From: Candidatus Saccharimonadota bacterium
GTDB lineage: Bacteria; Patescibacteriota; Gracilibacteria; UBA4473
DNA: 32,000 nt
NCBI GenBank assembly: GCA_965228485.1
Contig: OZ245819.1
Location: forward strand, 690,001 to 722,000
Reading direction: 5' to 3'
The notes under the pieces were generated by a model, which did not search any database, was not told where the DNA came from, and saw only the letters and a list, made by a program, of their open reading frames with translations. Position numbers and translations under genes: made by a program. Of this stretch, positions 405-20,408 are shown one piece after another. The first letter of the stretch is position 1. Each line of letters begins with the position of its first letter.

Positions 405-2849
405 TTAACGAACCGTAATTGTTTTAGATTGCTCTGAAATAATCCCGTTCTGATCAACCAATCTCATCTTTAGGATATATTCACCTGGATCAATATAAGT
501 ATGCCTTTGTGGATCCGGTCTGAAAACTCTATATGGTTCACTTCCATCTCCAAAATCCCAAACATATTCCCGAATAATTCCTTTAGGAATAAATGGAGTA
601 GCTTTAACTTCCAATGGTGCTGGCCCGGCACTCGGAACAACTTCAAAGTCAGCTTTAACTACTGGAGCACGGGCCGAAACAATAATCTCATCAGTGGAAG
701 TTTTTCCTTCTGAAGTAAGCACTGTCATACGAACCACATAATTTCCTACTTTTTCAAATAAGTAATCAATCTGTGCTCCATAATTAAGCGGTTCTTGTCC
801 TGGAAATTCCCAAATATAATTTACGATTTCGCCTTCATCAGCAGAAGAACCGGAACCATCAAATGTTATTGTAATTGGAGCCGGACCTGCTGGAGGATCC
901 GCTACGATTTTTGCAACCACCCCTGAACGATCAACCTGTATTGGAAACAGTTTTTCATGTTCTACATTATCTGAATCTACAATTACAAGCTTTACTTCAT
1001 AGTTACCTGGATCGCGAAAAATATGCTGAACCACTTCTCCATACTGATCCTCAATTCCATCTGATTGGAAGTCCCATCTCCATTCTAATGGATCTTTAAT
1101 TTTTGACTGACTAGAATCAAAAGTTACCTCGAATGGTACCACTCCCTTGAGTATTTTATCATTCTTCTTCAGTTCTGGAGTTGTCTTAATTACTACCTCA
1201 GCATTCAAATCTGCCTTCTCCACAACAATAGTCTTTTCCGTTCTTTGTCGTTCTCCTAAATCATTTTGGACCGTCAAAGTAACTTTATAGGCTCCTGCTT
1301 CTCGAAAAACTCTCTGCAACTTTCGTCCTAAAACAGGTTCTTCTTCTCCTTCTACAAACCACTCATAACGAGTGATAAGCCCTTCTTTAACAAAGGACTG
1401 AGAACCATCAAGTAAAACTTTTAATGGAGCAAATCCTTCTAAAGGATCTTTACTACTAATCACAGCCTTCAGATCACTTTCTGGCGTTTGAACCGTAATA
1501 ATTTGCTCCGCCACATTTGTATCATTATTTCTCCCTGTCACTCGTAATCTTATTTTATACTCACCGACCTTAGTAAAAGTCTCCAAAACTGTTGGTGTTT
1601 CCTGCCTAATTTCAAATTCACCATCACCATCCAAATCCCACTCATATAACACAATTTCACCATCTGGATCTTTGGATTCTGCGGCATTAAATTCGACTTC
1701 TAGAGGGAAGGCTCCAGACTCTGGAATAGCGGTTACTTTAGCTACTACAGCTTCATTATTAATAATTACTTCCTTCTGTGACTTAAATGAAATTTCTCGT
1801 CCTTCTACACTCGAAAAATAAAAAATCTCAGCCGTCACAGGATAACGTCCATTATTTTGTCCTCTATCTAAAAATCGATGAGAAACCTTATCTCCAGAAG
1901 CATCATATTGTCCATCTCCATCAAAATCCCAGTTAATCTGCCGAATAACTGAACGATTAATCTGTGGATAAAGTCTTTCTCCAATATCAAAGTTTACGGT
2001 AATTGGGGCACTAAGTCCAATCACACTTTCTGGGTCAGTCACAATTAAGGAATTATCAACCGCTCTACCTCGTGCTTCAGTTGCTTGGTCAATAATAAAA
2101 TAAAAGAAAAACCATGCCCCACAAGAAGTAAGGAATAGCATTAAATAAGCAAAAAATCGGAATAATAGACTTCTTTTATTTACATCTGTTTTCTTAGCAA
2201 TTCCCCACCTAAAAATGAAAACCAGTGTCGTCACTAAAAAGATTAATGCCACTATTCCAAAAATGGCATTGGTCATCATTAATAATAAATTTTTCAATCC
2301 AATAGCCTCGATCCCAAGCGTTTCAAATAAAGGATTAGAAGCATTTCCAGTCCATAAAGCCCAAAGCAAGGCTCCATAGAAAGCTAACACAGCAAATACC
2401 CCAATTCCTAAAAGTAAAAGTAAAAATATTTGAGGAGAAGAGGCTCCACGAGAAGGCTCTTCTGGTGGTTCTGTTTGAGGAGGCCTTGTTTTTGGCGGAG
2501 CTGGAGGTGCGGGAGCTGTAGCTGGCTCATTACTTTCCGCAGGTTTTGATGCTTCCACATCAGCCTCGGTACGTTTTGGATTATTAGGAAAACTTTTCAA
2601 CTCTGATTCAGAGCTTGTTTTCGGCGTATTAATATCAGTTACTGACTCGACTTTGATTTCTCCAACATTAGAAGCCTCTCCTTGTGACTCCACCGACACT
2701 GGTTGTGCAGGAGTCGAAGGATTTGATTCCAGATTAAATCCTTGAGGGTTATTTGCATCAGACAAAGATGGTAAACTTTCCGTATTCTGCGGAAGATTAT
2801 TCTCTGCAGAATTTTTAGAATTAGGATTCACGGCATCTTTTTCTGTCAT
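405..2849 (-). CDS. Membrane protein: ~135-aa Pro-rich disordered N-terminus, 3 predicted TM helices, about six PKD-like domains
   Basis: 814-aa ORF. The N-terminus is low complexity (PATAPAPPAPPKTRPPQTEPPEEP) with no signal peptide. Three hydrophobic helices follow (IFLLLLLGIGVFAVLAFYGALLWALW; LLLMMTNAIFGIVALIFLVTTLVFIF; FFAYLMLFLTSCGAWFFFYFII). Six PKD signatures come after them: INWDFDGDGQYD, YEWDLDGDGEFE, YEWFVEGEEE, WRWDFQSDGIED, YIWEFPGQEP, YVWDFGDGSEP. Confidence 0.8.
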   Translation of the reverse strand: MTEKDAVNPNSKNSAENNLPQNTESLPSLSDANNPQGFNLESNPSTPAQPVSVESQGEASNVGEIKVESVTDINTPKTSSESELKSFPNNPKRTEADVEASKPAESNEPATAPAPPAPPKTRPPQTEPPEEPSRGASSPQIFLLLLLGIGVFAVLAFYGALLWALWTGNASNPLFETLGIEAIGLKNLLLMMTNAIFGIVALIFLVTTLVFIFRWGIAKKTDVNKRSLLFRFFAYLMLFLTSCGAWFFFYFIIDQATEARGRAVDNSLIVTDPESVIGLSAPITVNFDIGERLYPQINRSVIRQINWDFDGDGQYDASGDKVSHRFLDRGQNNGRYPVTAEIFYFSSVEGREISFKSQKEVIINNEAVVAKVTAIPESGAFPLEVEFNAAESKDPDGEIVLYEWDLDGDGEFEIRQETPTVLETFTKVGEYKIRLRVTGRNNDTNVAEQIITVQTPESDLKAVISSKDPLEGFAPLKVLLDGSQSFVKEGLITRYEWFVEGEEEPVLGRKLQRVFREAGAYKVTLTVQNDLGERQRTEKTIVVEKADLNAEVVIKTTPELKKNDKILKGVVPFEVTFDSSQSKIKDPLEWRWDFQSDGIEDQYGEVVQHIFRDPGNYEVKLVIVDSDNVEHEKLFPIQVDRSGVVAKIVADPPAGPAPITITFDGSGSSADEGEIVNYIWEFPGQEPLNYGAQIDYLFEKVGNYVVRMTVLTSEGKTSTDEIIVSARAPVVKADFEVVPSAGPAPLEVKATPFIPKGIIREYVWDFGDGSEPYRVFRPDPQRHTYIDPGEYILKMRLVDQNGIISEQSKTITVR

Positions 2850-2873: not shown

Positions 2874-5800
2874 TTATTCCTCTAGGACCCCATCAGTTGT
2901 CTCTTCTTCAACTTTTGGCATCACCTTAATTGTGAGAGAATCTTCACTTTCGGTCAACCCATCTGATATATTCAGCTTTACTCGATAGAAACCAGAATCG
3001 CGATAGGAGAAGTTAATATTCTGTCCAGTTAGCACTCGTCCATCATCCAAATCCCACTCAAAGAAAACCGCCTGACCGTGTTCTGTAACTGATTGCCCAT
3101 ACAAAAAAAGCTTTGTATTAGTTGAAATAACCATATCCGCAATCAAACCTTCAAAGTAATTTCTTTGCCCAAAACCAATCGCCTTAAGCGAATCCATATC
3201 CAAATTATCTAGTTCAGCTTGAAGTTTTGCACGCTCTTCTTCATCGGTTACATTTTCAAGCTCTGCCAAAAGTGAAGCTCTGTGAGATTCTAACTCCGCT
3301 TCAAATTCTGCTTTCATAATTTCTCTAAGAGAATTTTCTACTCGTTTGAGCAACACGGCATTGTAATCAACTTCTTCTAATTCATCTTGAAAGAATATCT
3401 TTTGATCATTTGTCGTTGAAGTTGCTAGCTTTTGAGTAAATTCATCTTTCTTCAGAACAAGATCGTTCTTCACATTCCCAATAGTTAAAGCTCTTGCATT
3501 TGGATCGTAAAATTTCTCCAACAACTGCTGTTGTCGAGTTACTGACTGAATCTGTCCCAGTAGTGCTTTTTTCGTTGCGTCTTCTTTTGAAGAAACATAG
3601 GTACGTGTCAAATTCAACCGTCGATTAACCAAAATTCTTTGAGCTTCTTCTAGAGTGTTATCTTCATTAATTCCAGAATCCTCCAGACCCGAAAGCGTTT
3701 GCAAACTATTGTCTAATACCAAAATCTTAGAACGCAAAGCCTCTAGTTTTACTACATCTTTTTCCGCTCGAAAATCATTAACAATTTCTGTTTTTTTAGT
3801 TTCCAACTGATCTCTAAGATCGTAAACCGTCATATCAGGAGACAGTCCTGATTTATCTAAATCTTGAAGCAATTTAACCTGAGTTTTTAAATCACTAGAT
3901 TTACTTAATAAAGAGGCCGCTTGATCAGATGAGCTTCCAGCAACCATTGAGTTTACTTCTTTTTGATACTGATTAATCTTCTGTTTTGCCGTTACTAAAG
4001 GCATATCATCTAAACTAATCTCATCCGTTGAGAGGTATCCTAACTGCTCTAAAAGAGCCTGAACCTCGGCTAAACGAGCTTTTAAAACTTCGGCTTGAAC
4101 TGTATCTGTTTCACTTCTCAGTTGTTGTTCCAGAGCATCTTTTTCTGCTAACAACTCTTTCATACGATCATCTAGATAAGCTTTAAATTCAGTCTCATCA
4201 TCTAACCCATACTCCGAAGTCATTTGAGTTCGGGCTAAATCTAGCTGAATCTGAGCTAAACGATCAAGATTTGATAACTGATCATCAATGGTTTGAATTT
4301 GCCCCTGAATAAGAACTTTTGTTTGATCATCTTCTGCTTCGGATAATCGAGTTTCTAATTCAGCTTTTCGCTCCAAAAGTCCATCTTTATATTCCTTTGC
4401 GAACTCTCCCAATAAATCTGTGCTTGCCAGATACCTCTGCATGGCCTGAATATCTAGACCAATTGCAAACTTCTTCTCTCTATCAGTTTCCTTGGCTTGA
4501 TCTTCTTTAAGTGAATTTATTTTTTCATTCAAATAAGTCTTTTGTTCTTCAATAATTTTCTGCCTAAGCATATTAAGCTCATTCTCCAAAAGATCTCTTT
4601 CTAGTTCGTTGATTTCTCCACTCGTGTCTTCTTCTGCGGATGCCTTGGCCAACATTTCTAAATCTTGTTCAGCTTTATCAATTTGTCTTTCCAATGCTAA
4701 TCGAGCTTTTTCTTCTTGAGTTGCTTGAAGCTGTTTTAATAGCTCTTCTCGTTGTTTTTGTACTCTTTCTTGCTCTTTGAGAGCGATCTCTCGAGAAGCT
4801 TTTTGTCTTTCTAAGGAAACTTGCTTCGCTTTTTCTGCCTGAGCACTAAGAGCTGATATTTTTTCTTCAATAGATTCTGTATCTGCTGGGGCCGCAATTT
4901 TAACCTTCTCTAAAGCTTCCGTTTTGGCTTTTAAGAGCTCTACTTCTTTTTGCAAAGCCTCTTCTTCAAGTGATGGCGGTTTTTCTTGATCGATTCTATC
5001 AACAATTACATCGGCAATCCCTGTAATCTCATTAATTCCATCACTTACTCGAACTTTTATTTTATATTTACCTGGTTTTTTATAACGATAGGCAGGATTC
5101 TGGATAAACATTTTTCCGCCATCTCCCATATCCCAGTTGTATTCTAATCTATCAGCTTCTGGATCTTCTGCTGTTAAATAAAATCTAAAAACGGTATTAA
5201 CATCTCCTCTTTGGCTTGGAAGTATTCCCTTTAGCTGAACTTTTGGTGGAAGATTTTCTTTTTGTACCACCTCTTTGGCTACAACGGAAACTACGATGGA
5301 TTCTTCAACCGTTGCAATCCCATCACTCACTCGAACCGAAACCGTCTGAGTTCCTGGCTCAGTAAAGCGATACTGAAATTGTGGAGCATAGAATTTTCTA
5401 CCATCTTGGAGATTCCATTCATAACGAAGATAATCCTTATCGACATCTGAAGCTTCCGCAAAAAAAGTAAACATCGTATCAACATCTCCCTGATTACCTG
5501 GCACAACACTAATTCGTGCTTCTGGTGAAGTGTTAAATGATTCTTTTTCAAAAGGAAAACTTTCAGCACTATCAAAAGTATAAGTTGCATAACGATCATC
5601 CGTTACTGTAACGCGAAAACTATATATATGACTTCCTGGATAACGGCTCAAGTCAAAGTAAGCTGTTGGCTCTCGAACTACTTGAGAAAGAAATAGCCGT
5701 CCCTGTTCTAGAATTTCAAATTTATAACTGATAATACTTCCATCTGGATCAGAAGCATCAGCTTTTACATTAATCTGCCCTGGCACTTTAGATGCTGAAG

Positions 5801-6404
5801 TAAAGGTTAAAGATTTTACCGTTGGTGGCTGATTTTCTATCACTACTTTCAAATTATCTTGATCACGCAAATGAGGTCTATCAGAATCTTGAATCGTTAG
5901 TGAGACTTGATAAGTTCCTACTCGATTAAATACTAGGGGTACTTGGGATTCGGCATAATCTCTTCCATTAACTCTCCAGTTTGCCACAAAGGCTCCTGAA
6001 TCTCCTCCTGCAACTCCAAATGGTCGTGATTTTAAATCAATTTTTTGACCTAGTTGTGCTCTAATAACGCCTCCTGGAATAGTAACCCCATCAACTCGGG
6101 CTTCAATAGAAGCTGTTGGTTTATCCATATTATGGACCATTACAGACTTCGTCAACTCATTGGTTTCTCCAGAAGCAGCAATAACTCTTAAGGTTACTTC
6201 TTGAGGTCCATCTTCACGAAAAGTATACTGAACAATCTCCCCGTTAATTTTCACGTTCCCTGGAAACACCCACTCAAAAGTTTCACCAGCACGGCTTGTC
6301 GCTCTGAATGTTGCTGGTCTTCCCTTTATAATCATAGAGGCGGCCTCTACTGTGCCGCCTACTATTGCTAGTATAATAAAACCTAATACCAGTAACCGTT
6401 TCAT
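2874..6404 (-). CDS. Secreted giant protein: signal peptide, ~5 PKD-like domains, ~590-aa interrupted coiled coil, C-terminal PKD-like domain
   Basis: 1176-aa ORF with signal peptide MKRLLVLGFIILAIVGGTVEAAS. PKD-like signatures: FEWVFPGN, YEWNLQDGRKF, YNWDMGDGGKMF, and C-terminal FFEWDLDDGRVL. The central region is E/K/L/Q-rich with heptad-like character (EEEALQKEVELLKAKTEALEKV ... RAKLQAELDNLDMD). Confidence 0.8.
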   Translation of the reverse strand: MKRLLVLGFIILAIVGGTVEAASMIIKGRPATFRATSRAGETFEWVFPGNVKINGEIVQYTFREDGPQEVTLRVIAASGETNELTKSVMVHNMDKPTASIEARVDGVTIPGGVIRAQLGQKIDLKSRPFGVAGGDSGAFVANWRVNGRDYAESQVPLVFNRVGTYQVSLTIQDSDRPHLRDQDNLKVVIENQPPTVKSLTFTSASKVPGQINVKADASDPDGSIISYKFEILEQGRLFLSQVVREPTAYFDLSRYPGSHIYSFRVTVTDDRYATYTFDSAESFPFEKESFNTSPEARISVVPGNQGDVDTMFTFFAEASDVDKDYLRYEWNLQDGRKFYAPQFQYRFTEPGTQTVSVRVSDGIATVEESIVVSVVAKEVVQKENLPPKVQLKGILPSQRGDVNTVFRFYLTAEDPEADRLEYNWDMGDGGKMFIQNPAYRYKKPGKYKIKVRVSDGINEITGIADVIVDRIDQEKPPSLEEEALQKEVELLKAKTEALEKVKIAAPADTESIEEKISALSAQAEKAKQVSLERQKASREIALKEQERVQKQREELLKQLQATQEEKARLALERQIDKAEQDLEMLAKASAEEDTSGEINELERDLLENELNMLRQKIIEEQKTYLNEKINSLKEDQAKETDREKKFAIGLDIQAMQRYLASTDLLGEFAKEYKDGLLERKAELETRLSEAEDDQTKVLIQGQIQTIDDQLSNLDRLAQIQLDLARTQMTSEYGLDDETEFKAYLDDRMKELLAEKDALEQQLRSETDTVQAEVLKARLAEVQALLEQLGYLSTDEISLDDMPLVTAKQKINQYQKEVNSMVAGSSSDQAASLLSKSSDLKTQVKLLQDLDKSGLSPDMTVYDLRDQLETKKTEIVNDFRAEKDVVKLEALRSKILVLDNSLQTLSGLEDSGINEDNTLEEAQRILVNRRLNLTRTYVSSKEDATKKALLGQIQSVTRQQQLLEKFYDPNARALTIGNVKNDLVLKKDEFTQKLATSTTNDQKIFFQDELEEVDYNAVLLKRVENSLREIMKAEFEAELESHRASLLAELENVTDEEERAKLQAELDNLDMDSLKAIGFGQRNYFEGLIADMVISTNTKLFLYGQSVTEHGQAVFFEWDLDDGRVLTGQNINFSYRDSGFYRVKLNISDGLTESEDSLTIKVMPKVEEETTDGVLEE
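3200..4970 (-). other. Coiled-coil stalk segment inside the 1176-aa protein (approximate bounds)
   Basis: Residues ~479-1070 are dominated by E, K, L and Q with helical repeat character. Several short breaks occur (for example GLDIQAMQRYLASTDLLGEF, GYLSTDEISLDDMPLV, FYDPNARALTIGNV). Bounds were read from the translation and not computed with a coiled-coil predictor. Confidence 0.6.
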
Positions 6405-6413
6405 CTATAATGA

Positions 6414-8123
6414 TTAATTAATTTCAAAATCAATCGGAATAGTAGTGGTAATTGGAACCGTCAAAGTATATGGTTCCGATCGTAAAAACGATCCGTTTCT
6501 TGATTCAACTACTACTAGTTCCACACTTTTATCTCCAACACTATCAAATTCGTAAGTCATTTCTGGCGAACTGGCTTGTTGGAAATCTCCATCAAAACTC
6601 CAGAAATATGTTAGCCCTTGATTTATCCCTGAGATATTTTTACTCAAATTCCCATTAAATCGAATTTCAGCAGGCTTGAGCGTATTACCCGTAGAATCAA
6701 AAGTAAATTCTGCTACTGGCTGATTTCCAAGAACTGTAAAGGTTTTCGTGAAAGTATCACTATCACCTACTACATTCTCAATTTCTAGAGTAATTTCATA
6801 TTCTCCTGACTCACTAAACGATACCTCAACATTTTTACCAAAAGCTTCTTCAAAACATCCTCCTCCAGCATTGGCTGCACAAGTCCATTTATAACTTTTA
6901 ATAGATCCTACCAATACCGTTGAAGAACCTCCATCAAGCGCTACTTTTTCGTCTACAAGTAGCTGAGATTTACTGGCTGAAAATTGAGCATCAGTTCCTC
7001 CTACTGTTAGTGTTTTTTGAGTCGTAAATTGTTGACCATCAGAAGTCTGAACAACTCCCCGAATATTATAACTTTTTTCTTCTCCAAACTGATGAGTAAT
7101 TGTTGCTGTTGGATCAATTGTCGTATCTAGAACGGATTGAGTACGATCTCCAAAATCAATTACTACTACCGCCTGAGTACTAAGACCAAAAGTAATTCCA
7201 TTACGCGCAGCATCAGGGCTCGCCATTACCGTCCCCCCAAAATCATTCACTCCTTCTCCAGATAACAGTAATACGCTTGCAAGGTTTTGGGTAACACTTC
7301 CCGTGCCACTATTATCTCCAACATTTACAACCGAAACAGTTCCATCTGGATTAACGACTGTTTGAAGATTCGAACCATTACCAGTAATAAGCCCTGTAAT
7401 GTCTCCATTAGAGTTATTCCCTATCAGATTCGTATTGTTTGAATTAGTGCCTCCATCATTACTAATATCATTTCTGTCGTCAGTTCCGACTCCCGCATTT
7501 TTAATAACCGTATTCACAATCGCAAATGATGCTAGTACTACTAAAATACCGATAACGGCATAAATAAGTATTTTTTTAGATTTTTCGATATTACTATCTT
7601 CTCCAGCTGAAGCTACATACAGATAACCAGCATAAATTACCATGGCTACAGCAATAAGCCCAAGGAATGTCAGCGTAAAATTCAAGACATTAAGAATATA
7701 TTGTCTTAAAGAAGTATTTTGGCCAATGGTGTTAAATTTTTCTGGATCTGGCAGTTCAAACCGTCCCGTTGGTGTTACTCCCGTACCAGTATTTACCTGA
7801 TCAAAAATAGAATCAAAATCCTGCATGATAACTACGCTGCTTCCAGAATTAAATCCTGTATTATTTACTGAATATCTGACACTACTTCCTCCGCCAGTAA
7901 TATCATTACCAATACCTCGAATATTACCACCGATTCCTCTAATATCGCCTGTAATTCCTCCAATAATTCCTCTTACTCCACTAACCACATTAGCCACCCC
8001 ACTAACGGCTTGACCAACCTGGTTTAAACCTCCCACAAAGTCTCCAAAACTGAAGGCATGAGCCGTTGGAGTAACGGTCCACAGCGAGAAAGAAAGAACG
8101 ACACCGGTAATAAATTTTTTCAT
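6414..8123 (-). CDS. Fusion protein: signal peptide, Gly-rich repeats, VirB2/TrbC-like two-helix pilin module, N/G-rich linker, ~3 PKD-like domains
   Basis: 569-aa ORF with signal peptide MKKFITGVVLSFSLWTVTPTAHA. Gly-rich repeats: GGITGDIRGIGGNIRGIGNDITGGG. The hydrophobic hairpin FTLTFLGLIAVAMVIYAGYLYVASAGEDSNIEKSKKILIYAVIGILVVLASFAIVNTVIKNAG (nt ~7495-7715) is paralogous to the C-terminus of the upstream gene. PKD-like signatures: VIDFGDRTQ, YKWTCAANAGGG, YFWSFDGDFQ. Confidence 0.75.
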   Translation of the reverse strand: MKKFITGVVLSFSLWTVTPTAHAFSFGDFVGGLNQVGQAVSGVANVVSGVRGIIGGITGDIRGIGGNIRGIGNDITGGGSSVRYSVNNTGFNSGSSVVIMQDFDSIFDQVNTGTGVTPTGRFELPDPEKFNTIGQNTSLRQYILNVLNFTLTFLGLIAVAMVIYAGYLYVASAGEDSNIEKSKKILIYAVIGILVVLASFAIVNTVIKNAGVGTDDRNDISNDGGTNSNNTNLIGNNSNGDITGLITGNGSNLQTVVNPDGTVSVVNVGDNSGTGSVTQNLASVLLLSGEGVNDFGGTVMASPDAARNGITFGLSTQAVVVIDFGDRTQSVLDTTIDPTATITHQFGEEKSYNIRGVVQTSDGQQFTTQKTLTVGGTDAQFSASKSQLLVDEKVALDGGSSTVLVGSIKSYKWTCAANAGGGCFEEAFGKNVEVSFSESGEYEITLEIENVVGDSDTFTKTFTVLGNQPVAEFTFDSTGNTLKPAEIRFNGNLSKNISGINQGLTYFWSFDGDFQQASSPEMTYEFDSVGDKSVELVVVESRNGSFLRSEPYTLTVPITTTIPIDFEIN

Positions 8124-8128
8124 ATTGA

Positions 8129-8674
8129 TTAAAAAGCAGCTTGCATAACAGTGTTAACAATGGCGTAAGAAGCGAGAATAACAAGAATCCCGATTATACA
8201 CCAGATAATAATTTTCTTGGCTGACTCCATACGACTGTCGTCTCCAAGTGACGTAATATAAACGATCCCTGCCCAGACTAGAGCCACAACGGCAATAACT
8301 GCTGTGACAGCCAAGAGGAAGTTTGTCCATCCAATAATAAGTTCTTTAATATCTCGTTCTTTAGAAACGCCATCATCTAAATACTGTTCTACAACATTAG
8401 CGCCTCCTTCTAGGCCTGGACCATTAAAAACTGGTCCCCCATAAGGAAGAGCAATATTTCCATTGTTAGAAGTCGTTCTGGTCGTCCCTGCCTGGTTCCC
8501 TCGTTGACGAAGTGTTTGGTTTATATAAGAGTCCAATTGACCACTCAGCTGTTGATTACTCGTACTACTACCAATATTTTGCTGAATAAAACTATCAAAA
8601 TCCGCAGCCTCTACTTTCCCAGAAAGCAAAACAGCTACGACTAAACTAAAACATAGAACTAAAGCTTTTTTCAT
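8129..8674 (-). CDS. VirB2/TrbC-like (T4SS-pilin-like) small secreted two-TM protein
   Basis: The track ORF starts at 8725, but the internal ATG at 8674 gives a clean signal peptide MKKALVLCFSLVVAVLLSGKVEA/ADF. The C-terminus is a two-helix hairpin with a short charged loop: FLLAVTAVIAVVALVWAGIVYITSLGDDSRMESAKKIIIWCIIGILVILASYAIVNTVMQAAF. Signal peptide plus terminal hairpin is the VirB2/TrbC pilin topology. The family assignment is from memory, without an HMM run. Confidence 0.6.
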   Translation of the reverse strand: MKKALVLCFSLVVAVLLSGKVEAADFDSFIQQNIGSSTSNQQLSGQLDSYINQTLRQRGNQAGTTRTTSNNGNIALPYGGPVFNGPGLEGGANVVEQYLDDGVSKERDIKELIIGWTNFLLAVTAVIAVVALVWAGIVYITSLGDDSRMESAKKIIIWCIIGILVILASYAIVNTVMQAAF

Positions 8675-8708
8675 TTGTGTTTTTGTTATTCTGCCTATTT
8701 TACCACAG

Positions 8709-8717
8709 ATTATAACA
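8709..8717 (-). promoter_or_regulatory. Extended -10 promoter element (TGTTATAAT) for the pilin/PKD operon
   Basis: The minus strand reads ...TTGAATTGTGTTATAATCTGTGG..., which contains a TGnTATAAT match. It lies ~35 nt upstream of the ATG at 8674 and just downstream of the purL-C stop at 8744. No convincing -35 element was found. Confidence 0.4.
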
Positions 8718-8743
8718 CAATTCAAAAGAAAAAAAATTTTGTC

Positions 8744-9766
8744 CTAGAAAATATCCCTTAAAGAATTTTTCCAAACTGAGGTCAGTTCAACAGTATCGGA
8801 TTCAAACACAACTTCATTTGCAGATTTAATCACAACCTCACCTTTCGTCACTCTCCCCAAACGCATAGCTCCAGTAATGTGAGATAAATTTTCTGATGAA
8901 GAAACTAAAACCCCAAGCCCCTCTCCAAATAGTGTCTCTGGTAAGTCCTCGTCAATATTCAATTCAAAACCCAAACTATTTTTTACAGCTGATTGAAGCG
9001 CTGTAGCCCAAACACCCCCTGGCACAATGGGCAAGATCGAATTTAATTGCTTATTTTTTAATGCTTCTCTTAGTTCATTACAAAATCCATCAAAAACTTT
9101 ATAATTTACTGCTGGAAGATTTGTATCAGAGGCTTCAACATATTCTAAAAATTCACTTCCAGACAGAGACAACGGCAATCCTAAAAACCAAATATTATTT
9201 CCCTCATCAGAAAATGATAAAGGAGATACTGCATCCACTTCATCTACTCGAGCAAAAACTGATACCAAAGCACTTGGCGGCACAGACCTCCCTGAAGACT
9301 CATTATATAGAGAGACATTTCCTGAAACGATTGGAATCTCCAATTTTTCACACGCCATTTTTACTCCCTCAATTCCCTGAACAAGCTCAGCCATTTGCTC
9401 CTTTTTTTCTGGATTCCCAAAATTCAAACAATCCGTAGCTCCTAACCAACTCCCTCCCACAGAAGCTGTTTTTAATGCTGCCTCACAAATAGCTAATTCA
9501 GCAGCAAGCTTAGGATCAATTAGGGCTCTGTAAGGATTACCCCCCGTTCCAACAACTACTCCTATTTCAGCCAGATCGTCATCTAATTCTGAAAAATCTC
9601 TAAAAGGCACTACGACACTGGCAGCAAAATCTCCACGCTCACAAGCCGTATTCCCCTGAACATTCTTATCGTACTTTTCATAAATTGGTAATCGACTAGC
9701 AACGTTAGGTCGAGAAAGGATATCTACTAAACACTGGCTAATTGAGATTTTTTTCATCACTCGCAT
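8744..9766 (-). CDS. purL: Phosphoribosylformylglycinamidine synthase II (PurL), C-terminal half only (second PurM-like repeat)
   Basis: 340 aa. The N-terminus LVDILSRPNVASRLPIYEKYDKNVQGNT matches the conserved LL..PNIASK..Y.QYD start of the second half of small PurL. It continues with GGNPYRALIDP, ATDCLNFGNPEKKEQM and IPIVSGNVSLYNES, which are AIR-synthase-type motifs. The start codon is its own ATG, facing a 50-nt divergent intergenic region. Confidence 0.75.
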   Translation of the reverse strand: MRVMKKISISQCLVDILSRPNVASRLPIYEKYDKNVQGNTACERGDFAASVVVPFRDFSELDDDLAEIGVVVGTGGNPYRALIDPKLAAELAICEAALKTASVGGSWLGATDCLNFGNPEKKEQMAELVQGIEGVKMACEKLEIPIVSGNVSLYNESSGRSVPPSALVSVFARVDEVDAVSPLSFSDEGNNIWFLGLPLSLSGSEFLEYVEASDTNLPAVNYKVFDGFCNELREALKNKQLNSILPIVPGGVWATALQSAVKNSLGFELNIDEDLPETLFGEGLGVLVSSSENLSHITGAMRLGRVTKGEVVIKSANEVVFESDTVELTSVWKNSLRDIF

Positions 9767-10234: not shown

Positions 10235-12964
10235 CTATTGTGCTTCACAACGCATAAACTCTTTTCTCTCTTCACAAACTTTTGAAAAGTCTTCACTGTC
10301 TTCGTAACACTCATTCCATTCCCTCCATAAAACTCGACACTGAGTATTTTCTCGGCATTCCATCTCGTCATAAATCTGATTACAAGCTTTTTTATCTAGC
10401 TTAAGTCTGTTTACTTCTTCTACATCACTCCATGTATGAGCTTCAATCACATTTGGAGAAATGGTGAAGAAATTATCTCCAATGTAGATAATTCTTTGAA
10501 TGTTGTATTCATGATTTCCCCATCTACGAGTATTTTTATCTGACCAATAATCATCACTATAGTGAGTGGCTTTTCCTTTCAGTTGAAAACCTTCTTCTAA
10601 GCTCACATCATAAACAAAAGCTCCGTTGTAGCTCTGGCGAGCAGGCTGATAACCATTTTGAGCCGCTCCATCTTTTGTCATAACAGTAATTGGTAAGGCC
10701 ATAATTCCCTCAGCTTTATCAAAAAGTAATGCCTTATGATTATTAAGCACTTCACTGTAACTTCCCGTATCTCCAATAACCTTTTTATGAATTTCTTTTG
10801 GATTATTCACGTTTGATACATCAAAAATAGCTAACTTCACTCCCAAAACTTCATCAGGACTCAATCGATCATCCTCTTCTGCTCCTTCTTTTACCTCTTT
10901 CCCAAGACCAATAAGATGATTCTCATCGTAAGGATGTAGATAATCAGACCATCCTGGAATTTTCAATTCTCCCAAGACTTTTGGATTAGTAGGATTTAGA
11001 TCAATCACAAATAAGGGATCTACATTTTTAAAGGTTACCATATAACCTTTATTCCCCATAAATCGAACCGATTTGATATTCTCTCCTGGAGCAACCCCAT
11101 CAACCTTTCCGGTTAATTTTAAATTTTTATCCAGAATGTTCATCATCGATCCCTCTTGATTCATTTGTGTGGCAATTCGGAAATAATCCCCCTGTTCGCT
11201 CATTGAAAACTGATTTAATACGGAACCATCTACTTCTCCCTTCGCCACAAAATCAATGTTATTTTCATCCAGAGCAAACTTATAGATTTCCGTCACAGGA
11301 TTCCACTGCCAACCATCCCAAGAACGCCCCGTTATAAATCGTTCTTTGTGTTTTGTTCTCGTCACATAGAGATTGTTTGTAGAAGCATAAATTTGATTCC
11401 CACTTCCGAGCATCATAATTCGACCAACTTTTTCACTCGTATCTTTGGTATTAATTGCCCCAATAATTAAGAAATTTGAATCTTCAAAATTTGGGAAATA
11501 ATGAATATCCTGGCACGGAGCAATCATTTTTTCTGATGCATTGGCAGAATCTTCCATTATTGGAAGGTCTGTGTTTCTTAACATTGGAACTGGTCTTCCC
11601 CAATACCAATTTTGGTATTTATTGGTAACCAAATAAACTACATCACCAATCTTCCGAGATTGAGTGTAATTCCCTTCTAAGCTCACTTTTCTAATCTCTG
11701 TTGGATTTGATCGATCTGAAATATCAAAAGAGATAAGTGTCGTTAGCTGCTTATTTGTCCCTCCTGGATATGGCATCCCTGGCATAACCATTAATGCCAC
11801 TTCTGCTCGGGACTCAATTAAACGAGCATCTTCAGCAGAATCATCAAGAAAAATATCCGCATCATCAAAAAACTCTGGATCTTCCCATTCAAGCTCTTCT
11901 TCCAAAGGCATTGACTCCTTAACAGCTGGATAAACATTATACGAATTAGTTTGTCCTACTATGGTTAGAATATCTCCATCTACATACATCTCTCGTGGCC
12001 AAAAACCCTTGTCAGCAACAGACAAATTCGCCACTTCTTTCATTTGATCTGATGGAAAAGCTTTTACGATTCGAACGGCATTTTCTTTGATCATATAAAT
12101 ATGAGAGCCATCATTTTTAATGATATCGGCTTCATCAACACCGAATTCTTGAATATTTGTAGTAGAAAATTTTTCGGACCCCCCGCCTCCAATAGAAGAC
12201 TGAGTAGTAACTCCTTCTGATCTAGCCATAGCAGGCATATCGGATTCCATCATCTCCATATCCATAGCATCATCCATAAATAAGGCATTTCGACCATACA
12301 TTCCCTGCCCTTGTCTTTTTTGAAATTTTTTCATCTGCACATTCAGTGCTTCACAAGATTCAATTTTTGGTAAAACCAAATCCGATTCCCCAACTTCATT
12401 TCCTGTATCGATACCCCAAATCATTTGAGCCATCTCTCCTCTGCTAATTTTCTTAGCAATATCAGAGACTGACCCTGGCACGATTCTTTCACGACCGAGC
12501 GCTTGAGTAAACGGCTTAAACCACTCTGCTGAATCTTCTTCTTCAACTTCAACCTCTTTAACCTTGGCAATAATTTTGCTGGCTTCAGCAAAATTTATTG
12601 TATCACCTGGCTTAAAACTTCCATCTGGATATCCTTGGACAATACCCTTTTTCGTTGCCTGACAGATAATATTGTAGAACCATTGACCAGGTCTTACATC
12701 ATCGTAATCCACAATTGAATCACAAGTAGTACTATCTTTCTCAGAAGACTCTAGAACGATTTTTAAAAACTCAGCTCGGTTAATATCCTGTTCTGGCTTA
12801 AAAGTTCCATCTTCATATCCCTCTACCACTCCTTGATCTACCAAATATTGAACTGCCTTTGAGGCATTTGTTCCTTTGGCGTCTAATAATTCTGGAGATA
12901 TCTGATTGGCTAACGCCAAAACAGGCACCACTAGAGCAAAGGCCGCTAAACTAAATTTTTTCAT
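10235..12964 (-). CDS. Secreted cell-wall protein: signal peptide, 3 SLH-like repeats, beta-propeller domain (COG4880/Beta_propel-like), Cys-rich C-terminus
   Basis: 909 aa with signal peptide MKKFSLAAFALVVPVLALA. SLH-like repeats: AVQYLVDQGVVEGYEDGTFKPEQDINRAEFLKIVL and KKGIVQGYPDGSFKPGDTINFAEASKIIAK. FSTTNIQEFGVDEADIIKNDGSHIYMI is typical of the secreted beta-propeller family (recalled). The last 50 aa contain 7 Cys. Confidence 0.7.
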   Translation of the reverse strand: MKKFSLAAFALVVPVLALANQISPELLDAKGTNASKAVQYLVDQGVVEGYEDGTFKPEQDINRAEFLKIVLESSEKDSTTCDSIVDYDDVRPGQWFYNIICQATKKGIVQGYPDGSFKPGDTINFAEASKIIAKVKEVEVEEEDSAEWFKPFTQALGRERIVPGSVSDIAKKISRGEMAQMIWGIDTGNEVGESDLVLPKIESCEALNVQMKKFQKRQGQGMYGRNALFMDDAMDMEMMESDMPAMARSEGVTTQSSIGGGGSEKFSTTNIQEFGVDEADIIKNDGSHIYMIKENAVRIVKAFPSDQMKEVANLSVADKGFWPREMYVDGDILTIVGQTNSYNVYPAVKESMPLEEELEWEDPEFFDDADIFLDDSAEDARLIESRAEVALMVMPGMPYPGGTNKQLTTLISFDISDRSNPTEIRKVSLEGNYTQSRKIGDVVYLVTNKYQNWYWGRPVPMLRNTDLPIMEDSANASEKMIAPCQDIHYFPNFEDSNFLIIGAINTKDTSEKVGRIMMLGSGNQIYASTNNLYVTRTKHKERFITGRSWDGWQWNPVTEIYKFALDENNIDFVAKGEVDGSVLNQFSMSEQGDYFRIATQMNQEGSMMNILDKNLKLTGKVDGVAPGENIKSVRFMGNKGYMVTFKNVDPLFVIDLNPTNPKVLGELKIPGWSDYLHPYDENHLIGLGKEVKEGAEEDDRLSPDEVLGVKLAIFDVSNVNNPKEIHKKVIGDTGSYSEVLNNHKALLFDKAEGIMALPITVMTKDGAAQNGYQPARQSYNGAFVYDVSLEEGFQLKGKATHYSDDYWSDKNTRRWGNHEYNIQRIIYIGDNFFTISPNVIEAHTWSDVEEVNRLKLDKKACNQIYDEMECRENTQCRVLWREWNECYEDSEDFSKVCEERKEFMRCEAQ

Positions 12965-13086: not shown

Positions 13087-14775
13087 TTATCCCGCTACAC
13101 GATACACTTCTTCAAGGGTTGTCTCACCTAAAAGGACCTTTCTAAATCCATCCTCAAATAGCGTTAGATAATAAGGCTGTGTTTTAGCTACAAACTCTCT
13201 CAAATCAATTTCCGTAAGCCCCTCTGCCACACGAGCCCTCAGTTCATCAGAAAAATCAACCGTCTCACAAATCACCGTTTGATCTACAAATCCTGTGTGA
13301 GAACATTTTTCACACCCCTGTGGCTCATAAATGTGGATGTATTGAATATTCCCGTCTTCATCAACCTCAACTGAAAGCGAATCCAAAATATCTGGATAAA
13401 CTTCAATCACCCGAGAAAATGCTTCTTTTGCCTCTGGGTGTTTGTTGAGATCAAATTTAACTTTTTTACGACAGTGTGGACATATTTTTCGTACTAATCG
13501 CTGAGCGAAAATTGCATTAATAGCCGCCGCAATATTGAAGTATTCTAACCCTAAATTATTTAGACGAGTAATCGCTCCCAAAGCGGAATTTGTATGTAGA
13601 GAACTAAAAACTACATGACCAGTAAGAGAGGCCTCTGCGGCAAGTTTCGCTGTAGACAATTCTCGAATCTCACCAATAAGAATAACGTCTGGATCATGTC
13701 TCAACAAAGCCTTTAAGCCGTTTGAAAAATTATACTCAGAATTTTCATCGACTTGGGATTGAGTTACATTATCTAGATGATATTCAATCGGATCTTCTAA
13801 AGTTACTAATTTTTTCTCGGCTTCATTAAGCTCCGCAAGCATAGAGTATAATGTTGTTGTTTTCCCACTTCCTGTTGGACCGGTCACCAAAACCATCCCA
13901 TTTTTATGCCCGATCGCTTTTCGAATACTACTTTCAATATGAGGCTCAAATCCGAGGTCACTAAAAGTTTTGATTCCTTTCCGACTATCAAGTACCCGCA
14001 TAACAACCGATTCAAAAAATTCTGTTGGTAGGGTTGAAACCCTTAAGTCTACATCACGATTATTAGCTCTAAATGAGATATGACCATCTTGAGGAATGTG
14101 AAAAATATTCGATTTCATTCCTGCGATATACTTAATATGCGAGACTAGTTTTTCAGCTCTGTCTTTAGGTAATGGGCAAATATCATGAAGAATCCCATTA
14201 ATTCTAAATCGAAGTAATCCTTTCTCTTCATAAGGCTGTATATGAATATCAGAAGCCCTAACCTGCAGAGCGGTAATTTCAATCTCGTTAAGCGCTTCTT
14301 GTGCCTGAAGGTTTTTCAGTTTTGTTTCCAAATCTCCGAGCCCTATGAACTGTTCCTCAAAAGTCTTACCATCTTTCTCATCAAATTGTTCTTTCAACTC
14401 TACTTTTTTTCGGTTAATGAGCTTAGAGCCATAATGCTTTAAAATCTCGTTAAGTCCGTTCTCAGAACAGACATTCATCTCGATCTCAAAACGATCAACC
14501 TCAAGTCTGTTTACAATTTTTTGTACCACTCTATCTTCTGGATTAACGGCTGCTAAACGAAGCTTAAAACCACTTCTAAAGAACGGCACCAGTTCAGCAC
14601 TTCGAGCTTCAGACTCTGATACAAACTGTAAAACTTCTGGGTTTATCGGAAACTTAGAAAGATCTATGTAGTTAAGCTGAAGCTTAGTCGCTAAGTCTTG
14701 CGCTTCTCTTTCTTCAAATTCTCGATTGATGTCACCAACAGGATTTCCTGTTGTTAAGTTTTGAGATGAATCCAT
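13087..14775 (-). CDS. pilB: Type IV pilus assembly ATPase PilB (GspE family)
   Basis: 562 aa. N-terminal T2SSE_N-like region, Walker A VTGPTGSGKTTTLYS, Asp-box/Walker B DPDVILIGEIRE, His-box LTGHVVFSSLHTN, and a tetracysteine motif CPHCRKK...CEKCSHTG. Confidence 0.9.
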   Translation of the reverse strand: MDSSQNLTTGNPVGDINREFEEREAQDLATKLQLNYIDLSKFPINPEVLQFVSESEARSAELVPFFRSGFKLRLAAVNPEDRVVQKIVNRLEVDRFEIEMNVCSENGLNEILKHYGSKLINRKKVELKEQFDEKDGKTFEEQFIGLGDLETKLKNLQAQEALNEIEITALQVRASDIHIQPYEEKGLLRFRINGILHDICPLPKDRAEKLVSHIKYIAGMKSNIFHIPQDGHISFRANNRDVDLRVSTLPTEFFESVVMRVLDSRKGIKTFSDLGFEPHIESSIRKAIGHKNGMVLVTGPTGSGKTTTLYSMLAELNEAEKKLVTLEDPIEYHLDNVTQSQVDENSEYNFSNGLKALLRHDPDVILIGEIRELSTAKLAAEASLTGHVVFSSLHTNSALGAITRLNNLGLEYFNIAAAINAIFAQRLVRKICPHCRKKVKFDLNKHPEAKEAFSRVIEVYPDILDSLSVEVDEDGNIQYIHIYEPQGCEKCSHTGFVDQTVICETVDFSDELRARVAEGLTEIDLREFVAKTQPYYLTLFEDGFRKVLLGETTLEEVYRVAG

Positions 14776-14781
14776 CCCGCC

Positions 14782-14790
14782 ATTATACCA
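14782..14790 (-). promoter_or_regulatory. Extended -10 element (TGGTATAAT) immediately upstream of pilB
   Basis: The minus strand reads TTCTGGTATAATGGCGGGATG. Only 6 nt separate the -10 hexamer from the pilB ATG at 14775, which implies a leaderless or near-leaderless mRNA if this promoter is used. Confidence 0.4.
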
Positions 14791-14819
14791 GAAAACCCCT
14801 AAAAAATAAAGTGAGGATT

Positions 14820-16986: not shown

Positions 16987-17080
16987 TTATTTTTTTATTT
17001 CGCTCCCCCAGAGTAGTTATTTTTATAATTTTGGAAAACCATCTAATGATCCTAAGGCGACCTGAAAGTAAATCATTTTT

Positions 17081-17110: not shown

Positions 17111-17137
17111 AAGCTCTGACTGGTAAAAAAATAAAAA

Positions 17138-19862: not shown

Positions 19863-19864
19863 AA

Positions 19865-20407: not shown

Positions 20408-20408
20408 A

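What the first reader, a model, noticed from the sequence alone, without database searches (positions are those of the whole stretch)
6414..8674. Adjacent paralogous pilin-like hairpins, one a free 181-aa protein and one carrying a 330-aa PKD extension
The C-terminus of the 8129-8674 product and residues ~140-210 of the 6414-8123 product align closely. The first reads FLLAVTAVIAVVALVWAGIVYITSLGDDSRMESAKKIIIWCIIGILVILASYAIVNTVMQAAF. The second reads FTLTFLGLIAVAMVIYAGYLYVASAGEDSNIEKSKKILIYAVIGILVVLASFAIVNTVIKNAG. With a cleaved signal peptide and two TM passes, the C-terminal PKD domains of the larger protein would end up outside the cell. A plain subunit next to a subunit with a built-in adhesin resembles major-subunit plus tip or decorating-subunit arrangements. 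A VirB2-type hairpin directly fused to PKD domains is not an architecture I know to be described.
Basis: seen in the sequence. Interest (0 to 1): 0.65.

Follow-up and report, generated by a model that had tools for sequence, protein, structure and literature searches.

The report
Pilin-like membrane hairpins fused to adhesins
Two neighbouring genes of an uncultured ultrasmall bacterium (Patescibacteria, Gracilibacteria group) encode the same secretion-system "pilin" membrane hairpin, one plain and one joined to three outward-facing adhesin-type domains. The pairing is a conserved but undescribed surface module, and it raises the question of whether these "pilins" build pili at all.

Summary
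The 181-aa (8129-8674, -) and 569-aa (6414-8123, -) products share a real paralogous hairpin. It has 44% identity over 78 aa (E 1e-20) and scores z = 17-28 against shuffles. Both proteins pass the Pfam gathering score for T4SS_pilin (PF18895, VirB2-like).

The 569-aa protein has a signal peptide, a Gly-rich linker, the hairpin, an Asn/Gly linker and three confidently modelled Ig/PKD domains. Signal peptide plus two TM segments puts the PKD part outside the cell.

The two genes head a tight four-gene operon. It continues with a secreted PKD/coiled-coil protein (1176 aa) and a 3-TM PKD protein (814 aa). This module is conserved across Gracilibacteria/Peribacteria/Peregrinibacteria. In relatives the 569 and 1176 genes are one gene. 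In more distant relatives the hairpin heads 1500-2000-aa PKD giants, most of which also end in a C-terminal membrane anchor. These giants are preceded by proteins with three tandem hairpins.

No T4SS ATPase lies near any of 80 related loci.

Best reading: conserved hairpins co-assemble at the membrane and root PKD adhesin fibres for host attachment. A true pilus with a built-in adhesin remains possible.

The literature describes VirB2-like pilin arrays in Patescibacteria but not these fusions. I rate this a new variant of a known kind.

The parts
8697..8725 (-). Promoter-like site upstream of the small hairpin gene (TTGAAT-17-TAAAAT with TG; a TGTTATAAT also lies in this stretch). It sits in the 69-bp gap after the purL C-half gene.
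   Evidence: Consensus scan and direct reading. Matches to a consensus only; not evidence of function.
8129..8674 (-). Gene 1: 181-aa plain T4SS_pilin (VirB2-like) hairpin protein. Signal peptide residues 1-23 (VEA|AD), variable polar region to about residue 75, then a conserved C-terminal 105 aa that ends right after TM2.
   Evidence: Pfam PF18895 45.1 bits and TrbC 27.3 bits. 40 orthologues and their alignment. AF2 helices 104-141 and 146-180.
8132..8365 (-). Hairpin of gene 1 (residues 104-181): TM1, loop SLGDDSRMESAKK, TM2.
6414..8123 (-). Gene 2: 569-aa hairpin-PKD fusion. It starts 5 nt after the stop of gene 1.
   Evidence: Pfam PF18895 28.1 bits, PKD_4 49.2 bits, PKD 33 bits. 24 orthologues with the same domain set. 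AF2 model.
7497..7709 (-). Hairpin of gene 2 (residues 139-209). This is the most conserved part of the protein: 72% mean pairwise identity among 24 orthologues, against 43-48% for the Ig domains and about 33% for the linkers.
6417..7271 (-). Three extracellular Ig-like/PKD beta-sandwich domains of gene 2 (residues about 285-375, 376-466 and 467-569).
   Evidence: AF2 pLDDT about 88-97. Foldseek matches to Ig-repeat adhesins GhpA, SiiE and the ice-binding adhesin, E about 1e-9 to 1e-7.
2874..6404 (-). Gene 3: 1176-aa secreted protein. Signal peptide, 4-5 PKD domains, a charged, apparently helical/coiled-coil region of about 600 aa (read from the translation, not tested), and a C-terminal PKD. 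No TM anchor. It starts 9 nt after gene 2, and it is fused to the gene 2 homologue in some relatives.
   Evidence: Rosetta-stone fusions in L012, L017 and L019.
405..2849 (-). Gene 4: 814-aa membrane PKD protein. It has a 134-aa disordered N-terminus with no signal peptide, exactly three TM segments and five PKD domains. It is the most widely conserved partner of the hairpin genes (44 of 80 loci).
2088..2447 (-). Three-TM region of gene 4. TM2-loop-TM3 aligns in register with the pilin hairpin (FETLGI...LKNLLL..TN..FG against FNTIG...LRQYIL..LNF..FLG), but only weakly.
   Evidence: hhalign probability 30%, E 5e-4 against both hairpin families. Inconclusive.

Best explanation
The locus is a conserved four-gene cell-surface module of a Gracilibacteria-class Patescibacterium. 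It comprises a plain VirB2-like (T4SS_pilin) hairpin protein, a paralogue whose hairpin is fused to three PKD/Ig domains, a secreted PKD/coiled-coil fibre protein, and a 3-TM PKD protein.

Proposed mechanism. All four are exported or inserted by Sec. The signal peptides of the first two are cleaved, leaving N-out / loop-in / C-out hairpins. The highly conserved hairpins of the plain and the PKD-bearing paralogues then pack together in the cytoplasmic membrane, possibly with the hairpin-like TM2-TM3 of the 814-aa protein. They form a hetero-oligomeric root or short stub, rather than a long detached pilus. From this root the PKD arrays of the 569-, 1176- and 814-aa proteins project through the wall/S-layer as adhesive fibres that bind a host or prey cell.

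Shown: paralogy, family membership, domain content, operon structure and conservation. Also shown: gene fusion of the 569 and 1176 proteins in relatives, and lack of nearby T4SS ATPase genes.

Inferred: topology, co-assembly, adhesion, and the membrane-rooted rather than pilus state.
For: Family and paralogy.

Topology: signal peptides plus two hydrophobic segments with KK before TM2. About 24 of 33 giant homologues end in a hydrophobic segment plus basic tail, so their long tails are extracellular and tethered at both ends.

Constraint on the hairpin: 72% mean pairwise identity, against 43-48% for the Ig domains. Invariant polar and aromatic residues are N148, Y164, Y169, K181, K183, N204 and T205. 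This is more constraint than a passive anchor needs, and it argues for specific helix packing.

Module conservation: the small hairpin gene lies directly upstream of the fusion in about 17 of the 18 distinct related loci found; in the remaining one (L008) the contig begins at the fusion gene. The 814-like gene lies downstream wherever the contig is long enough, and it occurs in 44 of 80 loci.

Rosetta-stone evidence: single ORFs of 1145-1228 aa in L012, L017 and L019 cover both the 569-aa protein and the N-terminal part of the 1176-aa protein.

The 814-aa partner has an uncleaved N-terminal TM and a cytoplasmic N-terminus, so it must stay in the membrane.

No VirB4/VirD4-like gene lies within +/-10 kb of any of the 80 loci. 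The flanks are housekeeping genes (nusG-rplK-rplA, murB, recG, clpB, mutS).

The Ig tail resembles fibre adhesins GhpA, SiiE and MpIBP.

Literature: T4SS pilins are among the most highly expressed genes of unknown function in cultured Patescibacteria (PMC10936435). No T4SS adhesin was found in a phylum-wide survey (PMC12102498).
Against: Nothing here shows physical co-assembly. Adhesion is inferred only from domain type.

The homologous family (VirB2/TraA) is known to leave the membrane and polymerise. In those pili both termini are solvent-exposed (10.1101/2024.03.04.583355), so a C-terminal PKD tail is compatible with a pilus.

The window's own 569- and 1176-aa proteins lack the C-terminal anchor seen in giant homologues.

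In Gracilibacteria, T4SS genes are reported to be dispersed (PMC12102498), so absence of a neighbouring VirB4 does not exclude T4SS-dependent assembly. I could not search the rest of this genome.

The similarity between the 814-aa protein's TM2-TM3 and the hairpin is only 30% probability.
Confidence: 0.45

Rival explanations
1. A true VirB2-type pilus in a monoderm. The 181-aa protein is the major subunit, extracted from the membrane and polymerised by the Patescibacterial T4SS (VirB4 and other parts encoded elsewhere). The 569-aa paralogue co-polymerises as a minor, tip or decorating subunit that carries its own PKD adhesin.
For: Both proteins are members of PF18895, and the small one nearly reaches the TrbC/VirB2 cutoff (27.3 against 27.9 bits). 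In solved conjugative pili the N- and C-termini are solvent-exposed and the loop faces the lumen, so a C-terminal fusion is sterically allowed. VirB2-like pilin arrays are essential in Southlakia and sit inside its T4SS cluster (PMC10633639; PMC12857230). T4SS parts are dispersed in Gracilibacteria. Strong hairpin conservation fits polymer contacts. The best TM-score among top Foldseek hits for the small protein is the Aeropyrum pernix conjugative pilin 8dfu (TMt 0.67).
Against: No T4SS ATPase lies near any of 80 loci. Most giant homologues have a second, C-terminal membrane anchor. The conserved partner is a fixed 3-TM protein. The Foldseek match is not significant (E = 2), and there is no sequence match to solved pilins. 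No pilus has yet been seen on any Patescibacterium according to the 2025 review.
Confidence: 0.3
2. The hairpin is just a reusable two-helix membrane anchor. The plain protein and the PKD fusion act independently, and the similarity reflects common descent only, not co-assembly.
For: The hairpin is found in many contexts: alone (100-158 aa), in 2-8 tandem copies, and in front of tails from 150 to more than 2700 aa. No interaction was tested.
Against: Passive anchors usually evolve fast, yet here the hairpin is the slowest-evolving part (72% against 43-48%), with invariant polar residues. The plain and fused genes are adjacent in about 17 of 18 distinct related loci (the 18th contig begins at the fusion gene) and are separated by 5 nt in the window. 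A plain 181-aa hairpin with nothing to anchor would have no role.
Confidence: 0.15
3. The hairpin oligomer is itself the functional part. It would be a membrane channel or conduit (VirB2-like lumen, or holin-like) that exchanges molecules with the host, and the PKD domains only dock it to the target.
For: The 2025 review speculates that the Patescibacterial pilin array could form a conduit for uptake from the host. Tandem multi-hairpin proteins with up to 8 repeats could build a ring.
Against: No evidence for a pore. The loop is net neutral. No transport or ATPase genes lie in the operon.
Confidence: 0.07
4. Chance resemblance of two hydrophobic hairpins, or mis-called ORFs.
For: None beyond the general compositional bias of TM segments.
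Against: E = 1e-20 with composition correction. z = 16.8 even with segment-wise shuffles. Both proteins pass Pfam cutoffs. Both have dozens of orthologues in conserved synteny.
Confidence: 0.01

Closest known systems
VirB2-like pilin arrays of Patescibacteria (Southlakia epibionticum SEML1_0006-0019; survey by Quinonero-Coronel et al. 2025, PMC12102498)
   Same: Same Pfam family (PF18895). Signal peptide plus hydrophobic hairpin. Tandem, sequence-divergent paralogues (441 arrays of 2-11 genes reported). Monoderm host-dependent bacteria.
   Different: The described arrays are small pilins, often inside a T4SS cluster next to virB4. Here one array member carries 360 extra extracellular residues with three PKD domains. 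The array continues into two large PKD proteins. No T4SS gene is nearby. The survey reports no adhesins and mentions no fusions.
Conjugative pilins VirB2 / TraA / TrbC (PF04956) of diderm T4SS
   Same: Leader peptide, helix-loop-helix hairpin, and termini on the outer side of the membrane or pilus. Sub-threshold to borderline profile match (27.3 and 17.0 bits).
   Different: Below the PF04956 gathering score. No significant sequence or fold match to solved pilins. Not in a T4SS operon. Mature proteins are about 160 and 545 aa instead of about 70. The organism has no outer membrane.
Mbov_0395 / MMCAP2_0565 pilin-like conjugal transfer protein of Mycoplasma ICEs (NCBIfam NF045849)
   Same: The 80-position model aligns over the whole hairpin of both proteins (E 2.8e-6 and 1.6e-7). 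It is a monoderm protein from the MPF-FATA world from which the Patescibacterial T4SS is thought to derive.
   Different: Scores of 26.9 and 30.9 bits are below the curated cutoff of 40, so neither protein is a member. There is no ICE context here.
Modular (bimodular) type IV pilins such as Streptococcus sanguinis PilB/PilC, in which a pilin module is fused to an adhesive module (from my own knowledge, not checked here)
   Same: Same design idea: a polymerisation or anchor module shared with a plain subunit, covalently joined to an adhesion domain, and encoded beside the plain subunit.
   Different: Unrelated pilin fold and machinery. Type IV pilins have a class III signal peptide and N-methylation motif. 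The hairpin proteins lack this, whereas the genuine T4P pilins at 19365-20951 have it.
Giant Ig-repeat fibre adhesins (Salmonella SiiE, Marinomonas ice-binding adhesin, Aureispira grappling-hook GhpA)
   Same: Tandem Ig-like beta-sandwich domains. These are the best Foldseek matches of the 569-aa tail (E 2e-9 to 1e-7). Extracellular fibres used for attachment, in GhpA for catching prey.
   Different: Those proteins are exported and retained by T1SS or T9SS in diderms. None has a VirB2-like hairpin. Sequence identity is only 12-16%.
PrgB-type surface adhesins of Gram-positive conjugative T4SS
   Same: Possible functional analogue: an adhesin working with a monoderm T4SS.
   Different: No sequence relationship. 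PrgB is LPXTG-anchored, and the proteins here have no LPXTG motif or sortase signal (read from the translations).

Membership tests
Pfam PF18895 T4SS_pilin (VirB2-like pilins, mostly Patescibacteria) | Profile score above the curated gathering score (26.6 bits) | tested here: met
   45.1 bits (181-aa protein, residues 107-175) and 28.1 bits (569-aa protein, residues 139-205).
Pfam PF18895 T4SS_pilin (VirB2-like pilins, mostly Patescibacteria) | N-terminal Sec signal peptide followed by two hydrophobic helices joined by a short charged loop | tested here: met
   Hydropathy and sequence. AF2 helices 139-171/178-209 and 104-141/146-180. No dedicated signal-peptide or topology predictor was available.
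Pfam PF18895 T4SS_pilin (VirB2-like pilins, mostly Patescibacteria) | Small single-domain protein (typical members 100-158 aa) | tested here: not met
   All 120 best profile hits are 80-158 aa. The window proteins are 181 and 569 aa. The 569-aa protein is a multidomain variant.
VirB2/TrbC/TraA conjugative pilin (PF04956; T4SS major pilin) | PF04956 score above the gathering score (27.9 bits) | tested here: not met
   27.3 bits (just below) and 17.0 bits.
VirB2/TrbC/TraA conjugative pilin (PF04956; T4SS major pilin) | Encoded within or next to a T4SS gene cluster (VirB4 and others) | tested here: not met
   No such gene in the 32-kb window. None within +/-10 kb in 80 related loci. The rest of the genome could not be searched.
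VirB2/TrbC/TraA conjugative pilin (PF04956; T4SS major pilin) | Fold or sequence similarity to solved conjugative pilins | tested here: inconclusive
   No PDB sequence hit. Foldseek gives no hit with E < 1. The A. pernix conjugative pilin 8dfu ranks 12th with TMt 0.67 and E = 2. A helical hairpin is too simple a fold to discriminate.
VirB2/TrbC/TraA conjugative pilin (PF04956; T4SS major pilin) | Polymerises with phospholipid into an extracellular pilus | not testable with these tools
   Needs microscopy or biochemistry, or at least multimer structure prediction, which was not available.
VirB2/TrbC/TraA conjugative pilin (PF04956; T4SS major pilin) | N- and C-termini outside, loop on the cytoplasmic or lumen side | tested here: met
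   Inferred from signal peptide plus two TM segments and KK before TM2. Corroborated by C-terminal TM plus basic tails in about 24 of 33 giant homologues. Known pilus topology.
PKD / Ig-like surface domains (PF18911, PF00801) | Profile match above cutoff and beta-sandwich fold | tested here: met
   PKD_4 49.2 bits and PKD 33 bits. Three beta-sandwich domains with pLDDT above 88. Foldseek matches to Ig-repeat adhesins.
Type IV pilins (T4P, class III signal peptide) | N-terminal methylation motif (PF07963) and prepilin-peptidase site | tested here: not met
   Absent from both hairpin proteins. Present in the three true pilins at 19365-20951 of the same window.
Sortase-assembled Gram-positive pili (major subunit plus tip adhesin) | C-terminal LPXTG sorting signal | tested here: not met
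   The 181-aa protein ends ...VMQAAF and the 569-aa protein ends ...IPIDFEIN. Neither has LPXTG or a C-terminal TM segment.

The most novel reading that the evidence does not exclude
The hairpins do polymerise into a VirB2-type filament on a single-membrane cell, and the PKD-bearing paralogue is a built-in adhesin subunit. The giant and multi-hairpin relatives would be elaborations of the same design. This would be the first conjugative-type pilin carrying its own adhesin. It would also supply the 'missing adhesin' of the essential Patescibacterial T4SS, and the lack of linked T4SS genes might mean assembly independent of the canonical machinery.
Probability: 0.25. Interest if true: 0.8.

Novelty: new variant of a known kind. 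Interest (0 to 1): 0.55.

Why it matters
VirB2-like 'pilins' are one of the most abundant and most expressed protein families of Patescibacteria. In Southlakia they are essential for epibiotic growth. Nobody yet knows whether they form a pilus, and a phylum-wide survey found no T4SS adhesin.

This locus shows that a whole class-level lineage has wired the same hairpin directly to adhesin arrays. These range from three PKD domains to giants of more than 2000 aa, and other relatives have up to eight hairpins in one chain. That gives concrete, testable handles:
- the hairpin's partners;
- a ready-made extracellular tag on a pilin;
- natural double-anchored variants that constrain where the hairpin can sit.

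It also warns that counting PF18895 hits as 'pilins' hides very different proteins.

Tried and rejected
- Sequence search of the small-pilin profile against all PDB chains: only spurious hits (TFIIH Tfb1, E = 0.04), no pilin.
- Foldseek of the small-pilin model against PDB: nothing with E < 1. The fold is too simple to test VirB2 membership.
- Foldseek of the whole fusion model: dominated by Ig repeats, so it says nothing about the hairpin.
- Hairpin HMM and hhalign against the 3-TM region of the 814-aa family: consistent register but only E 0.007-10 per sequence and 30% probability. I left this as a lead and do not claim it.
- Screens for T4SS ATPases in 80 related loci using Walker-A motifs plus Pfam: found only ClpB, RecG, PilB, ABC transporters and GMP synthase, plus likely MutS and helicase ORFs judged by eye. 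One 977-aa ORF had no Pfam hit.
- A link to the nearby type IV pilus cluster (13087-21824) was considered and rejected. The hairpin proteins lack the class III signal, and the T4P neighbourhood is not conserved outside the closest relatives; distant loci sit by nusG-rplKA, murB or recG instead.
- My automatic choice of genetic code 25 for 41 loci was unreliable. I therefore counted only giant ORFs with no or almost no in-frame TGA.
- The last word-index search with a hairpin profile listed only short pilins, so it could not give the frequency of fusions. The exhaustive representative search did.
- Literature searches for VirB2 + PKD + Patescibacteria, for PF18895, and for Vampirococcus + PKD found no description of the fusion.
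Full report
**1. What is in the sequence**

On the minus strand, four ORFs follow each other with gaps of 5, 9 and 24 nt:
- 8129-8674 (181 aa)
- 6414-8123 (569 aa)
- 2874-6404 (1176 aa)
- 405-2849 (814 aa)

A 69-bp gap containing promoter-like hexamers precedes the first gene.

The window comes from a chromosome. It also carries ribosomal protein genes, rpoA, a UvrD-family helicase gene and a type IV pilus cluster. GC content is about 38% and the sequence reads in the standard genetic code.

The nearest relatives are MAGs labelled Candidatus Altimarinota (the Gracilibacteria phylum), Gracilibacteria, Peribacteria and Peregrinibacteria. All belong to the Patescibacteria group. The closest relative, OZ246423.1, is 47% identical in the fusion protein.

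**2.

BLASTP aligns residues 103-180 of the small protein with residues 133-210 of the large one. The alignment has 44% identity, no gaps and E = 1e-20.

Their alignment score is 28 SD above full shuffles. It is 17 SD above shuffles confined to TM1, loop and TM2, so hydrophobic composition does not explain it.

Both proteins pass the Pfam gathering score of PF18895 (T4SS_pilin). The small one nearly reaches that of TrbC/VirB2. The large one also matches PKD_4 and PKD. NCBIfam gives sub-threshold hits to the Mycoplasma ICE 'pilin-like conjugal transfer protein'.

**3. Anatomy and topology**

Each hairpin protein begins with a classical Sec signal peptide: MKK..., a hydrophobic core, and VEA|AD or AHA|FS.

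Two strongly hydrophobic segments follow. They are separated by SLGDDSRMESAKK in the small protein and SAGEDSNIEKSKK in the large one, with the lysines just before TM2.

With the signal peptide removed, the chain is N-out, loop-in, C-out, so the tail of the 569-aa protein is extracellular.

AlphaFold2 with 24 orthologues models helices 139-171 and 178-209. It also models three beta-sandwich domains between residues 285 and 569 at pLDDT of about 88-97. The Gly-rich N-terminal part and the Asn/Gly linker (210-284) are disordered. The tail matches Ig-repeat fibre adhesins: GhpA, SiiE and the ice-binding adhesin.

The small protein ends immediately after TM2. Its conserved part starts about 30 residues before the hairpin, at the motif PVFxGPGLEGGA...LDDNVSKERDLKELI. 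Its model is a long hairpin, 104-141 and 146-180.

**4. It is a conserved module, not a one-off**

- The fusion has 24 database orthologues, all with PF18895 plus PKD.
- The small protein has 40 orthologues, many on the same contigs.
- In one scan of one genome per species, 197 stretches encode a relative of the hairpin.
- In about 17 of the 18 distinct related loci found, the small gene sits directly upstream of the fusion; in L008 the contig begins at the fusion gene. The 814-like gene lies downstream wherever the contig extends far enough.
- The 814-like family is the commonest neighbour, present in 44 of 80 loci. It always has a disordered N-terminus without signal peptide, exactly three TM segments and a PKD array.
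- In L012, L017 and L019, single ORFs of 1145-1228 aa cover both the 569-aa protein and the N-terminal part of the 1176-aa protein. The two window genes therefore correspond to one protein elsewhere.

**5. The more distant Peribacteria/Peregrinibacteria**

In these lineages the locus reads as follows:
- two proteins of about 340 aa, each with three tandem T4SS_pilin repeats;
- then a protein of about 1500-2000 aa with a signal peptide, one hairpin at residues about 75-160, a helical region and 7-9 PKD domains;
- then the 814-like gene.

These giant ORFs contain no in-frame TGA. Of 33 giants, 15 end in a strongly hydrophobic segment followed by a basic tail. By eye, about 9 more end in a weaker version. 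Many carry a GFGI-like motif.

**6. How common is the fusion?**

An exhaustive phmmer search of 1.84 billion cluster representatives, using the hairpin of the 569-aa protein, finds 26,665 proteins at E <= 1e-3.

Among the 150 best hits:
- 96 have 2-8 tandem hairpins;
- 53 have a single hairpin.

Of the 53 single-hairpin proteins, 45 have a C-terminal tail of at least 150 aa, 39 of at least 300 aa and 17 of at least 700 aa.

I scanned 32 of the long-tailed, single-hairpin proteins against Pfam. Of these, 31 hit T4SS_pilin and 30 hit PKD_4.

Ordinary members of the family found with a broader hairpin profile are 80-158 aa and are named 'pilin' by NCBI. The window's fusion therefore belongs to a sizeable subfamily in which a PKD tail is the rule.

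**7. Context that bears on mechanism**

Neither the window nor any of the 80 loci (+/-10 kb each) contains a VirB4/VirD4-type ATPase. The large P-loop ORFs confirmed by Pfam are ClpB, an ABC transporter and GMP synthase. The others look like RecG, PilB, MutS and a helicase by sequence inspection and similarity to the window proteins. One 977-aa ORF had no Pfam hit.

The published survey notes that T4SS components are dispersed in Gracilibacteria and that VirB6 is undetectable there. Absence nearby is therefore not absence from the genome, and I could not search the genome.

The hairpin is the most constrained part of the fusion. Mean pairwise identity is 72%, against 43-48% for the Ig domains and about 33% for the linkers. 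Polar and aromatic positions are invariant.

TM2-loop-TM3 of the 814-aa family aligns in register with the hairpin profiles, but at only 30% hhalign probability.

**8. Interpretation**

Shown here:
- The two proteins are paralogous VirB2-like hairpins.
- One is naturally fused to extracellular PKD domains.
- They head a conserved operon of PKD surface proteins.
- The fused design is widespread in this class.

Inferred: the hairpins co-assemble. I think the most likely state is a membrane-rooted hetero-oligomer or short stub that anchors PKD fibres for host attachment (confidence 0.45). My reasons are:
- most giant homologues are tethered at both ends;
- the universal partner is a fixed polytopic membrane protein;
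- no T4SS genes are linked.

The main rival is a genuine pilus with a built-in adhesin subunit (0.30). It remains compatible with the family's known behaviour and with exposed termini in solved pili. A merely passive anchor (0.15) fits poorly with the hairpin's conservation and with the existence of a plain subunit.

**9. Comparison with what is known**

VirB2-like pilin arrays in Patescibacteria are established. In Southlakia they are essential and sit in the T4SS cluster. The survey counted 441 arrays.

None of the papers I could search mentions PKD or other large fusions, or intragenic tandem hairpins. The survey explicitly reports finding no adhesins.

The two proteins are members of PF18895. 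They do not meet the tested criteria for canonical VirB2/TrbC: score, operon context and fold match. They are not type IV pilins or sortase pilins (see membership table).

Functionally, the nearest design analogue is the modular type IV pilin, in which a pilin module is joined to an adhesin module. That comparison rests on my own knowledge and was not checked here.

**10. Verdict**

This is a real, conserved and previously undescribed variant of a known family. It is of moderate to good interest because it bears on whether Patescibacterial 'pilins' make pili and on how these cells attach to hosts.

Noticed in passing
L061:9212-10234 and 10261-11292; L075:8724-9764; library proteins P0188-P0324: Single polypeptides with 2-8 tandem T4SS_pilin hairpins. 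Examples are 340-aa proteins with three Pfam stretches and an 820-aa protein with eight. They make up 96 of the 150 closest representatives. In Peribacteria/Peregrinibacteria they sit where the window has its single 181-aa hairpin gene. I found no paper describing them.
   Followed up: partly
C-termini of giant hairpin-PKD ORFs, e.g. L061:11354-16078, L077:11316-16286, L027:9148-13890: About 24 of 33 giants end in a hydrophobic segment plus basic tail, 11 of them with a GFGI motif (e.g. ...SMFGFGILTYRNKKRK). This looks like a tripartite C-terminal sorting or anchor signal, reminiscent of PGF-CTERM-type signals. The window's 569- and 1176-aa proteins lack it.
   Followed up: partly
window 21821-23122 (-) and 8744-9766 (-): purL appears split into two genes 12 kb apart on the same strand. 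The N-half is 433 aa (FGAR-AT linker, AIRS, AIRS_C) and the C-half is 340 aa (AIRS). A type IV pilus cluster and surface-protein genes lie between them. The C-half stands alone next to the hairpin genes in 9 relatives, so the split is old.
   Followed up: partly
window 15112-16986 (-): A 624-aa secreted, Gly-rich protein with no Pfam or NCBIfam hit and no homologue in the related loci. Its GGN codons explain the local GC rise to 0.49. The C-terminal 150 aa is almost pure Gly/Ser/Ala with a few conserved-looking blocks.
   Followed up: partly
window 13087-21824: A type IV pilus cluster on both strands: PilB (562 aa), PilN-like, PilO-like, PilC, three N-methyl-motif pilins and a 290-aa ORF without family. 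It is syntenic in the closest relative (L001) but not in distant ones.
   Followed up: partly
window 10235-12964 (-): A 909-aa protein with two SLH domains and a Beta_propel domain (E 9e-156). An SLH protein also follows the module in relatives (L001:17812-20196). This suggests an S-layer or cell-wall-anchored envelope around the PKD fibres.
   Followed up: no
window 30925-31935 (-): A 336-aa ORF whose last 45 residues match the HicA toxin domain (E 4e-10). The preceding 280 residues have no family, which is far longer than usual HicA toxins.
   Followed up: no
window 8129-8674 and 6414-8123: Both hairpins give sub-threshold matches (26.9 and 30.9 bits, cutoff 40) to NCBIfam NF045849, the 'pilin-like conjugal transfer protein' of Mycoplasma ICEs. 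This hints that VirB2-like hairpins exist in monoderm MPF-FATA systems, contrary to the usual statement that Gram-positive T4SS lack them.
   Followed up: no
window 23176-24405 (-): A 409-aa ORF with an N-terminal TM segment and a long coiled coil, but no Pfam or NCBIfam family. It lies between the purL N-half and rpsI.
   Followed up: no
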